Source: a virus. From it: a stretch of DNA of 39,670 bases. Within the stretch, counting starts at the first letter, position 1, and the number at the start of each line of letters is the position of its first letter. The position numbers were made by a program, and so were the translations under genes. Location of the stretch: the UHGV virus genome UHGV-0120812. The stretch is one strand, 5' to 3'. Under the pieces are notes generated by a model. That model ran no database searches. It had not been told where the DNA came from and worked only from the letters and a program-made list of their open reading frames with translations. This document shows positions 1 to 39,670 of the stretch, one piece after another.

Positions 1-49
1 TTGATTGGAATGGTGTTTTTTAGATGTGAGAAATATTTTACCCGCTATT

Positions 50-250
50 TTACCCATTGGCGCGGCTTAAGAGCTTATTTTTAAATTCACAATGGTCACG
101 ATATAACCATCTTGCTCGTCCGTGGATAACTTTGGCTTTAGGAAGGTCGCCGGACTTAATCCGGTCATAGATGAAGGTTTTACCAAAGCCAGTATCGGCC
201 ATGATGAATTTCAAATCAACCAGTGAATCAGGCTGTAGTTCGTGTTGCAT
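50..250 (-). CDS. torI: AlpA/TorI-family excisionase (recombination directionality factor)
   Basis: 66 aa MQHELQPDSLVDLKFIMADTGFGKTFIYDRIKSGDLPKAKV...; winged-helix AlpA-like pattern; recognised from memory as TorI-like of the E. coli KplE1 (CPS-53) prophage. Confidence 0.85.
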   Translation of the reverse strand: MQHELQPDSLVDLKFIMADTGFGKTFIYDRIKSGDLPKAKVIHGRARWLYRDHCEFKNKLLSRANG

Positions 251-26892: not shown

Positions 26893-27081
26893 ATGGCACG
26901 AACAATGCTCTATAAGCCGGGCAACATGATCACCTGTGGTCAGTTTGCTGTCGATTACATCATTGTTGATGACGAAGAAGTTAAATCTCACCTGAAAAAA
27001 GGCTGGGTAAAAACTCCTGAAGAAACCGCAACGAAGCATAAAGTGGCTAAGGCGGAAGAAGATGGCGAAAACGAAGGGTGA
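26893..27081 (+). CDS. Hypothetical small protein after coat gene
   Basis: 62 aa MARTMLYKPGNMITCGQFAVDYIIVDDEE...; GGGAGAAG RBS; ORF-track start at 26854 would overlap the terminator. Confidence 0.55.
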   Translation: MARTMLYKPGNMITCGQFAVDYIIVDDEEVKSHLKKGWVKTPEETATKHKVAKAEEDGENEG

Positions 27082-38462: not shown

Positions 38463-39620
38463 TTACTCCACCTTTTCATCAATCCAGTCAGCCCACCACT
38501 GCATCATTTCTCTGCGCTTATCGAGATACTGAGCATGGTTGTAAATTCCGCGCACAGATCCGCCGTTGGCATGTGCCAGTTGCACTTCAATAGCATCAGC
38601 GGGCCATTCGTGCTCGTTCATAATCGTGCTGAATTCATGCCTGAATCCGTGACCGCTTTCCAGACCCTCATAGCCTATTTGTTTGATCACAAGCAATACC
38701 GCGTTCTCGCAGATTGGCTTCTTCTTATCGTTGCGCCCGGCAAAAACAAACTCTGATACTGGTTTGGTGATGGAGCTTAGCGTAGTGAGAAGTTCAATAA
38801 CCTGGTCCGACATCGGAACCACATGAATCTTGCGTCCCTTCATCACATTGGCGTCGATGGTGATAATCCCGTTTTCAAAATCGACGTTCTTCCATAGCAT
38901 GGAACGAAGCTCTTTTGTTCTGAGGGCTGTGTAGCGTAAAACTTTGGTCGCAATGAGCGATACGATACTTCCTGAAAATGTTGCCAGTGCTTTGTTGAAT
39001 GCCGGGATCTGGTCTGCTGGAAGAAACGGGAAGTTCTTCTTGCGGTATCCCTTCATGGCGTCAGCAAGGTCAGGTGCCGGGTTGTATTTAGCCCTTCCGG
39101 TGACAATAGCGTAACGGAAAACTTCGCCGCATCTTCTGCGGGCTTTGTTGGCTCGCTCCATTGCACCGCGATCTTCAAACCTGCGGATTACTTCCAGCAG
39201 TTGCATCGGCTCAATATCCTGAATCTCAAGACCGCCGATGATGGGTAAAATGTCGTCATCAAACATTTTGGCAAGTTCAGTCGCATACCCTACTGACCAT
39301 ACTTGCTTCTTGTGCTCGTACCATTCTTTGTAAATCGCACTAAAGGAATTGTTGTTAGACGAAGCCTTTTTCGCCTTTACCGGATCGATGCCAACCGAGA
39401 TGTCTTTCCTCGCAGTCCATGCCTTATCCCTTGCCTCCTGCAAAGTCATTAGCGGATATTTTCCTACGGTCAGGACTTTCTCCTTACCGTCAATCTTGTA
39501 GCGAAGCTGCCATACCTTTTTCCCTGATACAGGGACATAAAGGTACAGGCCATTACCATCGAGTAGGCGGTATGGTTTTTCTTTCGGCTTAGCTGCTTCA
39601 ATCTGCTTAACGGTGAGCAT
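38463..39620 (-). CDS. intS: Tyrosine integrase, P4 family (N-terminal arm-binding domain)
   Basis: About 385 aa from MLTVKQIEAAKPKEKPYRLLDGNGLYLYV...; C-terminal HGFRHEF and VQLAHANGGSVRGIYNH catalytic motifs; resembles KplE1 IntS as recalled. ORF-track GTG at 39656 is an alternative start. Confidence 0.9.
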   Translation of the reverse strand: MLTVKQIEAAKPKEKPYRLLDGNGLYLYVPVSGKKVWQLRYKIDGKEKVLTVGKYPLMTLQEARDKAWTARKDISVGIDPVKAKKASSNNNSFSAIYKEWYEHKKQVWSVGYATELAKMFDDDILPIIGGLEIQDIEPMQLLEVIRRFEDRGAMERANKARRRCGEVFRYAIVTGRAKYNPAPDLADAMKGYRKKNFPFLPADQIPAFNKALATFSGSIVSLIATKVLRYTALRTKELRSMLWKNVDFENGIITIDANVMKGRKIHVVPMSDQVIELLTTLSSITKPVSEFVFAGRNDKKKPICENAVLLVIKQIGYEGLESGHGFRHEFSTIMNEHEWPADAIEVQLAHANGGSVRGIYNHAQYLDKRREMMQWWADWIDEKVE

Positions 39621-39665
39621 GGGTAAAAATCCGGTGGGTAAAATTATTTTATCCACTTTTTACCC
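39621..39665. promoter_or_regulatory. Clustered GGGTAAAA/TTTTACCC motifs upstream of int (candidate Int/RDF binding sites of the att region)
   Basis: GGGTAAAAA at 39621..39629, GGGTAAAA at 39636..39643, inverted TTTTTACCC at 39657..39665; TTTTACCC recurs at 36..43 and 48..55. Confidence 0.5.
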
Positions 39666-39670
39666 GTCAT

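What the first reader, a model, noticed from the sequence alone, without database searches (positions are those of the whole stretch)
39621..39670. Repeated GGGTAAAA/TTTTACCC motifs straddle the window ends between int and the excisionase gene
Seen in sequence: three copies in the last 50 nt (two direct, one inverted) and two more at 36..43 and 48..55, at the 3' end of the excisionase gene. The window ends therefore fall inside a site-rich region linking xis (50..250) and int (starts 39620). Inference: these are arm-type Int or excisionase binding sites of attP/attL, and the window was cut at or near the att junction; in the circular phage form xis and int would be adjacent in tandem. Established knowledge: in KplE1, TorI binding near the int promoter controls intS.
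Basis: partly seen in the sequence, partly recalled or inferred. Interest (0 to 1): 0.4.

Follow-up and report, generated by a model that had tools for sequence, protein, structure and literature searches.

The report
Known IntS integrase arm-binding sites
The repeated GGGTAAAA words at the two window ends are the already mapped docking sites for the prophage integrase IntS on either side of its attachment site at the argW tRNA gene, so the finding is real but ordinary.

Summary
GGGTAAAA occurs 7 times in the window against 0.96 expected, and 5 copies, plus a sixth degenerate one (GGATAAAA), lie in the first 55 and last 50 nt.

These ends are 100% identical to the characterised attR and attL arms of E. 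coli K-12 prophage KplE1 (CPS-53). They are about 95% identical to phages HK620, Sf6 and Kapi1. In KplE1 the TAAA-containing words are the arm-type sites of integrase IntS. One overlaps the -10 box of the intS promoter, and IntS represses its own gene about 5-fold. The HK620 GenBank record already marks them as attP repeats.

- They are Int sites, not excisionase sites. TorI binds GTTCG-type pentamers, and none lies in the window.
- The two ends do not abut in the circular phage. 150 nt are missing: 110 nt of P' arm (five TorI sites and the -35 box), the 16-nt argW core, and 24 nt of P arm.

New support comes from relatives. The word is conserved while flanks drift. A sister clade at the same tRNA swaps all sites on both arms to GGGCAT, and the swap follows the Int N-terminal arm-binding domain.

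Verdict: already known, low interest.

The parts
48..55 (-). P-arm (attR side) IntS arm-type site GGGTAAAA. It overlaps the last Gly codon and the TAA stop of torI.
   Evidence: Exact motif. Identical to K-12 KplE1 attR. GGGTAAA is kept in the Klebsiella phage Chronis and the Erwinia phage Midgardsormr38. The equivalent place in g341c carries GGGCAT instead.
36..43 (-). P-arm (attR side) IntS arm-type site GGGTAAAA. It is a direct repeat of the previous site, 12 nt away and 7-14 nt downstream of the torI stop.
   Evidence: It lies inside the HK620 repeat_region 'attP' 1441-1463.
1..35 (-). Remainder of the P arm present in the window. The window starts 24 nt short of the att core.
   Evidence: Alignment to HK620, Sf6, K-12, W46 and Kapi1.
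39658..39665 (-). P'1 IntS arm-type site GGGTAAAA, overlapping the -10 box of the intS promoter.
   Evidence: Identical to K-12 attL. PMC2951348 states that P'1 overlaps the -10 box TAaAAa. Conserved in all IntS-clade relatives while the flanks vary.
39657..39662 (-). -10 hexamer TAAAAA of PintS. The matching -35 box TTGACA lies outside the window, at the equivalent of 39681-39686.
   Evidence: PMC2951348, the K-12 sequence and the position arithmetic.
39647..39654 (-). Degenerate direct copy GGATAAAA, which is GAGTAAA or GGGTAAA in relatives. It is probably a further P' site. It covers the mapped intS transcription starts, which correspond to window 39651/39650.
   Evidence: The starts are at -31/-30 from the ATG by the coordinates in PMC2951348. 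Whether the authors count this copy as a P' site could not be checked, because the figure is not held.
39636..39643 (+). P' IntS arm-type site, inverted relative to P'1 (TTTTACCC on the int-coding strand), in the intS 5' untranslated region.
   Evidence: It lies in the HK620 repeat_region 'attP' 1207-1232.
39621..39628 (+). P' IntS arm-type site, inverted, directly abutting the intS ATG. There is no Shine-Dalgarno sequence in between.
   Evidence: A word abutting the ATG is seen in 23 of 42 relatives by a strict exact-word test, against 0.16 expected.
38463..39620 (-). intS, a heterobivalent tyrosine integrase: Arm-DNA-bind_3 at residues 2-86, Phage_int_M, and the Phage_integrase catalytic domain.
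   Evidence: Pfam scan. RefSeq 'prophage integrase IntS' in 100%-identical E. coli prophages.
50..250 (-). torI (xis, equivalent to HK620 hkaC), the recombination directionality factor.
   Evidence: Matches PDB 1Z4H 'Tor inhibition protein' over all 66 residues, E 6.6e-43. RefSeq annotates the same gene as torI in near-identical prophages.

Best explanation
The window is a P22-like (Lederbergvirus, Kapi1/HK620/Sf6-type) prophage in prophage orientation, with both ends trimmed inside attR and attL at the argW tRNA-Arg(CCU) site. The GGGTAAAA words are the arm-type sites of the integrase IntS.

Layout:
- Two direct copies on the P arm, at and just after the torI stop codon.
- Four copies on the P' arm: two direct, of which the second is degenerate, then two inverted. 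[quoted passage not shown]

Mechanism. The N-terminal Arm-DNA-bind_3 domain of IntS binds these words while the catalytic domain binds the 16-nt core CTGCAGGGGACACCAT, which lies outside the window. That bridges arms and core into the intasome for integration and, with TorI, for excision. Because the P' sites sit over the -10 box, the transcription start and the 5' untranslated region up to the ATG, IntS occupancy also represses intS about 5-fold. This holds integrase at the narrow concentration that excision needs.

What is shown and what is inferred:
- Shown here: sequence identity to the mapped sites, the missing 150 nt, conservation, and the concerted word change.
- Shown by others for the identical KplE1 sequence: P' sites defined by TAAA, P'1 over the -10 box, and autorepression.
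- Inferred: that each individual copy in this element is occupied, and that the degenerate copy is a true site.
For: 1. Window 72..1 and 39670..39618 (- strand) are 100% identical to K-12 KplE1 attR and attL.
2. PMC2951348 reports that the IntS arm-type P' sites all contain TAAA, that P'1 overlaps the -10 box TAaAAa, that IntS represses PintS about 5-fold, and that TorI sites are a different word located elsewhere.
3. The HK620 record AF335538 annotates repeat_region 'attP' at 1207-1232, 1232-1253 and 1441-1463. These map exactly onto the motifs. It places the attP core at 1368-1383.
4. IntS has an Arm-DNA-bind_3 domain with E 1.4e-25.
5. Phylogenetic footprint: in phages and prophages with Int down to about 67% identity the words and their spacing are kept while spacers and flanks diverge.
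6. Concerted change: a sister clade at the same tRNA has GGGCAT at the equivalent positions of the P' arm. In phage g341c it has GGGCAT on both arms.
7. Natural chimera L020: residues 89 to the end are 76% identical to IntS and 62% to the GGGCAT-type Int. Residues 1-88 are 58% and 78% respectively. L020 carries the GGGCAT word.
8. The layout of two direct copies plus an inverted copy at the ATG is found in 23 of 42 relatives with at least 8 different words. Shuffles predict 0.16, and 0 of 336 control windows show it.
Against: No binding was measured for this element. The two papers that mapped the sites by footprinting and mutagenesis (J Biol Chem 2007, 282:21798; Virology 2010, 404:41) are not held, and neither is the figure that shows the sites. 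The exact number and limits of the published P and P' sites therefore could not be compared copy by copy.

In PMC2951348, single TAAA-to-ATTT mutations of the P' sites other than P'1 did not relieve repression, so the contribution of each copy to autoregulation is unresolved. The relatives used in the layout test are phylogenetically related, so the 23 of 42 count overstates the number of independent events; the count of at least 8 distinct words is the safer figure. The window's own flanks are unknown. The position of the core is inferred from W46, K-12, HK620 and Kapi1.
Confidence: 0.93

Rival explanations
1. The words are binding sites of the excisionase/RDF TorI, the reader's alternative, through which TorI represses intS and bends the arm.
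For: TorI does bind attL and represses intS (PMC2951348). RDF sites are typically direct repeats about one helical turn apart, as the 11-12 nt spacing here is.
Against: The mapped TorI sites are GTTCG/GATCG/GTCCG pentamers at -158..-131 and -95..-68 from the ATG. In HK620 these lie only in the 150 nt absent from the window, and no such pentamer occurs in the window ends on either strand. TorI repression was lost on mutating I4 and I5, not the P' sites. The word also occurs inverted, and in L020 it tracks the Int N-terminal domain.
Confidence: 0.03
2. The repeats are codons of a small protein gene on the + strand starting at 39619, annotated as Kapi1 hyp25, HK633_026 and Chronis gp28. On this reading the repetition reflects a peptide repeat (MGKNPVGK...).
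For: An ORF is annotated at this place in three phage records. It begins ATG GGT AAA AAT CCG GTG GGT AAA.
Against: Across relatives the ORF runs from 2 to 76 codons. It changes frame just after the motif region, and it has no start codon in L021-L025 although the DNA words are kept. The same words recur on the P arm on the other side of attP, outside any such ORF. The Kapi1 authors found no phenotype for hyp25 (PMC8787464).
Confidence: 0.02
3. The inverted copies form an RNA hairpin, acting as a terminator or translational operator for intS, rather than acting as protein-binding DNA.
For: The 61-nt segment folds to -15.6 kcal/mol, z = -2.36 against shuffles. The last arm abuts the ATG.
Against: The mapped transcription starts (window 39651/39650) lie inside the hairpin, so the PintS transcript lacks the 5' arm. 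No terminator-like site was found. A hairpin does not explain the two direct copies on the P arm, or the concerted word change on both arms. The modest z-score is what inverted protein sites give by themselves.
Confidence: 0.02

Closest known systems
IntS arm-type sites (P, P') of the KplE1/CPS-53 attL and attR in E. coli K-12. Sources: Panis, Mejean and Ansaldi, J Biol Chem 2007; Panis et al., Virology 2010; Panis et al., PLoS Genet 2010 (PMC2951348).
   Same: The sequence of both arms is identical as far as the window reaches. The integrase (IntS), the RDF (TorI), the argW site, the overlap of P'1 with the -10 box and the promoter geometry are all the same.
   Different: Nothing in the sites themselves differs. 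The carrier here is a full-length, about 40-kb P22-like prophage rather than the 10-kb KplE1 remnant. The window lacks the central 150 nt.
attP of phages HK620 (AF335538, Clark et al. 2001), Sf6 (AF547987) and Kapi1 (MT813197, PMC8787464)
   Same: The xis-attP-int interval is the same, and the window ends are identical to the HK620 and Sf6 arms. HK620 already annotates the repeats as 'attP' and annotates the excision promoter over them. The Kapi1 record is cut at the core and shows the 41 + 109 nt that the window lacks.
   Different: HK620 also labels the copy inside int (829-839, equivalent to window 39243) as attP. That copy shows no DNA-level conservation here.
Satellite phage P4 Int/Vis control of int (Piazzolla et al. 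2006, as cited in PMC2951348)
   Same: Int binds at similar positions relative to its own transcription start and represses itself. The RDF also lowers Int.
   Different: The integrase, words and tRNA site are different. Vis is proposed to act on the mRNA rather than on DNA.
Lambda Int arm-type sites P1, P2, P'1-P'3
   Same: A heterobivalent integrase with multiple arm words on both sides of the core, distinct from the core sequence, assembles the intasome.
   Different: In lambda, int is not transcribed from within attL and the arm sites are not an operator for int. The number, spacing and orientation of the sites differ (PMC2951348 introduction).

Membership tests
KplE1/HK620/Sf6 argW recombination module: IntS arm-type sites | The integrase is an IntS orthologue with an N-terminal arm-DNA-binding domain. 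| tested here: met
   Pfam Arm-DNA-bind_3 at residues 2-86, E 1.4e-25, plus the catalytic domain. RefSeq annotates intS in 100%-identical prophages.
KplE1/HK620/Sf6 argW recombination module: IntS arm-type sites | The RDF is TorI/HkaC, encoded at the opposite prophage end and in tandem with int across attP. | tested here: met
   The 66-aa product matches PDB 1Z4H over its full length. Layout as in HK620, Sf6 and Kapi1.
KplE1/HK620/Sf6 argW recombination module: IntS arm-type sites | The arm sequences match the experimentally mapped attL and attR. Every P' site contains TAAA, and P'1 overlaps the -10 box TAaAAa. | tested here: met
   100% identity to K-12 over window 72..1 and 39670..39618. Description in PMC2951348.
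KplE1/HK620/Sf6 argW recombination module: IntS arm-type sites | A 16-nt core CTGCAGGGGACACCAT (the 3' end of argW) flanks the element. | tested here: inconclusive
   The core is absent from the window, and no tRNA was found in it. In the near-identical W46 prophage, K-12, HK620 and Kapi1 it lies 110 nt beyond the right end and 24 nt before the left end. The window's own flanks are not available.
KplE1/HK620/Sf6 argW recombination module: IntS arm-type sites | IntS protein physically binds the words. | not testable with these tools
   Published for the identical KplE1 sequence (PMC2951348 and the papers it cites). Supported indirectly here by the word changing together with the Int N-terminal domain.
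TorI (RDF) binding sites | GTTCG/GATCG/GTCCG pentamers in two blocks between the core and the -35 box of PintS. | tested here: not met
   There are none in the window ends on either strand. All five lie in the 150 nt that the window lacks (positions).
Intrinsic terminator or regulatory RNA hairpin | A G+C-rich stem followed by a T run, or a structure carried on the transcript. | tested here: not met
   0 terminator-like sites. The mapped transcription start lies inside the putative stem.

The most novel reading that the evidence does not exclude
The layout seen here may be a general self-operator design of Arm-DNA-bind_3 (P4/IntS-type) tRNA-targeting integrases. It consists of two direct arm words over the -10 box and transcription start, plus an inverted copy abutting the int ATG. 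The word would be dictated by the N-terminal domain alone.

The evidence is the GGGTAAA and GGGCAT clades, the natural chimera L020, and at least 6 further words in Aeromonas, Sulfurovum, Ruegeria, Sphingomonas, Alkanindiges and other genomes. If this holds, it gives a ready-made comparative data set for reading a recognition code for arm binding and for predicting att arms from sequence.

Panis et al. 2010 predicted widespread autoregulation from gene order. As far as the papers I could read show, they did not use the word-level covariation.
Probability: 0.55. Interest if true: 0.35.

Novelty: already known. Interest (0 to 1): 0.12.

Why it matters
For this window it matters mainly for annotation. 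It fixes the element as an argW-integrated, IntS/TorI-type P22-like prophage. It shows that the excerpt is trimmed inside attL and attR, so the att core, the TorI sites and half of the intS promoter must be sought in the flanks. It also warns against calling the small antisense ORF over the sites a gene.

Biologically the sites are a well-studied example of an integrase using its arm sites as its own operator. The only added value is the comparative evidence: the concerted word switch on both arms, and a natural domain chimera.

Tried and rejected
- Looked for a tRNA or core inside the window: none.
- Tried to read the two mapping papers (PMID 20494389 and 17545146): not held. The published site count and limits were therefore taken only from the text of PMC2951348.
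- Tested TorI-type pentamers in the window ends: none.
- Tested the strict IHF consensus WATCAANNNNTTR on the whole HK620 attP: no match on either strand. I make no IHF claim.
- Tested the hairpin or terminator reading: weak fold, and no terminator.
- Tested the antisense small ORF: not conserved.
- Tested whether the copy at 39243, labelled attP in HK620, is constrained: it is not. The copy at 27005 was not pursued beyond noting that about one chance copy per window is expected.
- The consensus promoter scan did not recover the experimentally mapped PintS. It returned a different weak match, so promoter positions are taken from the paper.
- Pfam gave no family for TorI at E <= 0.001. Its identity rests on PDB 1Z4H and on the RefSeq torI annotation.

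Full report
**1. The observation**

GGGTAAAA, counted on both strands, occurs 7 times in the 39,670-nt window. Dinucleotide-preserving shuffles give a mean of 0.96 and a maximum of 4, and none of 100 shuffles reaches 7. Allowing one mismatch adds GGATAAAA at 39647-54 (-), between two exact copies. Five exact copies within 115 nt is far beyond chance, about 1e-15 per span by Poisson. The six sites share YGGGTAAAAW.

The gene calls also hold. ORF 50..250 (-) gives a 66-aa protein that matches PDB 1Z4H, 'Tor inhibition protein', over all 66 residues with E 6.6e-43. RefSeq annotates the same gene as torI in near-identical E. coli prophages. The integrase ATG at 39620 (-) is the RefSeq intS start in E. 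coli prophages that are 100% identical over the last 771 nt.

**2. What the window is and where its ends fall**

The window is a P22-like phage genome; the best overall match is Kapi1, a Lederbergvirus. Its int region is about 95-96% identical to HK620, Sf6, CUS-3, Kapi1 and others.

In HK620 (AF335538) int starts at 1207 and the xis homologue hkaC ends at 1457. The 249 nt between them are attP, with the annotated core at 1368-1383. The window's last base corresponds to HK620 1257 and its first base to HK620 1408. The alignment shows this as a clean 150-nt gap in the joined ends.

The missing piece has three parts:
- 110 nt of P' arm
- the 16-nt core CTGCAGGGGACACCAT
- 24 nt of P arm

The same holds in three other places:
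- In the near-identical prophage of E. coli W46, tRNA-Arg(argW) begins 112 nt beyond the window end. The core copies lie 110 nt to the right and 24 nt to the left.
- In K-12 KplE1 the arrangement is the same.
- The Kapi1 record is cut at the 17-bp att site. It carries 41 more nt on the left and 109 more on the right (PMC8787464).

The window is therefore in prophage orientation, with xis at one end and int at the other, and it is trimmed inside attR and attL. Joining the ends does not recreate attP.

**3. What the words are**

On the int-coding strand the window reads as follows.
- P arm (72..1): ...AAT**GGGTAAAA**TAGC**GGGTAAAA**TATTTCTCACATCTAAAAAACACCATTCCAATCAA
- P' arm (39670..39618): ATGAC**GGGTAAAA**AGT**GGATAAAA**TAA**TTTTACCC**ACCGGAT**TTTTACCC**ATG

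Both stretches are 100% identical to K-12 KplE1 attR and attL.

For that sequence, Panis et al. (PLoS Genet 2010, PMC2951348) report the following:
- The IntS arm-type P' sites all contain TAAA.
- P'1 overlaps the -10 box (TAaAAa) of the intS promoter. The -35 box is TTGACA.
- Transcription starts at a T and an A residue. By the paper's own coordinates these are at -31 and -30 from the ATG, which is window 39651/39650 and inside the GGATAAAA copy.
- IntS represses the promoter about 5-fold.
- TorI binds a different word (GTTCG, GATCG, GTCCG) in two blocks, at -158..-131 and -95..-68.

Translated into window terms, all five TorI sites and the -35 box lie beyond position 39670. A direct search found no such pentamer in either window end, while HK620 has all five inside the missing 150 nt.

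The HK620 GenBank record already labels 1207-1232, 1232-1253 and 1441-1463 as repeat_region 'attP', with a 'prophage excision' promoter over them.

IntS carries the Pfam Arm-DNA-bind_3 domain at residues 2-86, as a heterobivalent integrase should.

**4. Independent comparative evidence**

*(a) Footprint.* In the Klebsiella phage Chronis and the Erwinia phage Midgardsormr38 (int DNA about 75-77% identical), every word position is kept while flanking bases change. The degenerate copy becomes GAGTAAA. One scan of species-representative genomes gave IntS relatives from 99% to 58% identity, nearly all next to tRNA-Arg(CCT). Most of those with Int at or above 67% identity keep GGGTAAA, GrrTAAA and two copies of TTTACCC, with the last copy abutting the ATG. 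L022 and L025 have a single inverted copy, L033 has degenerate ones, and L020 carries the other word.

*(b) Concerted switch.* A sister clade at the same tRNA (L020, L028-L031, L035) has the same layout with a different word: GGGCAT, GGGCAT, then ATGCCCAC-ATG. The complete attP of Salmonella phage g341c shows the switch on both arms. GTGGGCATaaatGCGGGCATaaa follows the xis stop, where the window has GGGTAAAAtagcGGGTAAAA.

*(c) Natural chimera.* The L020 integrase (Tatumella punctata) compares as follows.

| L020 Int segment | Identity to window IntS | Identity to L028 (GGGCAT type) |
|---|---|---|
| Residues 89 to end | 76% | 62% |
| Residues 1-88 (arm-binding domain) | 58% | 78% |

Its arm word is GGGCAT, so the word follows the arm-binding domain.

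*(d) Layout test.* I applied a strict exact-word test: at least 2 direct copies, plus an inverted copy ending within 8 nt of the start codon, in the 80 nt upstream. It is positive in 23 of 42 full-length loci, against 0.16 expected from shuffles and 0 of 336 control windows. At least 8 different words are involved, including in 30-38% relatives at other tRNAs. The loci are related, so the number of distinct words is the safer measure.

**5. Rivals**

- *TorI sites.* Excluded by the published mutagenesis and by the absence of the TorI word.
- *A small antisense ORF from 39619.* It is annotated as Kapi1 hyp25, HK633_026 and Chronis gp28. It is not conserved: it runs 2 to 76 codons, changes frame, and has no start codon in L021-L025, while the DNA words persist.
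- *An RNA hairpin between the inverted copies.* It folds only moderately better than shuffles (z = -2.4). The mapped start lies inside it, no terminator-like site is present, and it cannot explain the P-arm copies.
- *The copy inside int (39243), which HK620 labels attP.* It encodes conserved Ile-Leu-Pro with freely varying codons, and even another E. coli sequence has TTTTACCT there. It looks like a chance or coding match. The copy at 27005 fits the roughly one chance copy expected.

**6. Mechanism and status**

Most likely (0.93), IntS N-terminal domains dock on the two P and four P' words while the catalytic domains hold the argW core. This assembles the intasome. The P' set doubles as the operator of the intS promoter, covering the -10 box, the transcription start and the 5' untranslated region up to the ATG, and it gives negative autoregulation. 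TorI acts on separate sites upstream of -35 that the window does not contain.

The status of each step is:
- Binding and repression were shown by others on identical DNA.
- Identity, truncation, conservation and covariation are shown here.
- Occupancy of each individual copy, and the status of GGATAAAA as a site, are inferred.

**7. Novelty**

The finding is already known. The sites were mapped in KplE1, annotated in HK620, and the arrangement was generalised by Panis et al.. I score interest low, at 0.12. The one modestly new item is the word-level covariation across the integrase family and the L020 chimera. I record these as a side observation and as the novel case.

Noticed in passing
L009-L065 (int at about 1201 of each locus); L088:930-1203: The same upstream layout recurs across IntS relatives and distant Arm-DNA-bind_3 integrases at other tRNAs or tmRNA. 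It has two direct words about 11-12 nt apart near the -10 box, plus an inverted copy abutting the int ATG. The words are lineage-specific: GGGTAAA, GGGCAT, GGTATAC, TGGTACA, TTGCTC, TTGGTCT, ACGGGTA, TGGTGCT. The strict test gives 23 of 42 loci against 0.16 expected.
   Followed up: partly
L020:1201-2370 (Tatumella punctata): This is a natural integrase chimera. Its catalytic part groups with IntS (76%), but its N-terminal arm-binding domain groups with the GGGCAT clade (78%, against 58% to IntS). Its arm word is GGGCAT. It amounts to a natural domain-swap experiment.
   Followed up: partly
window 39243-39250 (HK620 829-839): The HK620 record labels this GGGTAAAA copy inside int as an 'attP' repeat. 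It encodes Ile-Leu-Pro, and the codons vary freely in relatives, so it is probably a chance or coding match and not a site.
   Followed up: yes
window 39619-39670 (+), running off the end; Kapi1_070, HK633_026, Chronis gp28: A small ORF is annotated antisense to the intS promoter and P' arm in three phage records. It is not conserved in length, frame or start codon across relatives, and it is most likely an annotation artefact lying over protein-binding DNA.
   Followed up: yes
L002 (HK633, JQ086377): 1388-1468 versus 2722-2970: The HK633 record annotates attP downstream of int, as 'similar to the ykgJ-yagV intergenic region'. Yet its xis-int interval contains a complete argW-type attP, including the core CTGCAGGGGACACCAT and all the arm and TorI words. 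The annotated integration site may be wrong, or the phage may carry two candidate sites.
   Followed up: partly
window 38463-39656 (-): The mechanical ORF for int extends to a GTG at 39656, giving 397 aa, and HK633 also annotates a longer int. That start lies upstream of the mapped transcription start (39651/39650), so the ATG at 39620 is the real start. It has no Shine-Dalgarno sequence, because an arm site abuts it.
   Followed up: partly
L015 (contig CAWCSS010000004.1, labelled as a Solirubrobacteraceae MAG): An IntS relative 82% identical to the E. coli protein sits on a contig assigned to an actinobacterial MAG. This is probably a binning or contamination artefact.
   Followed up: no
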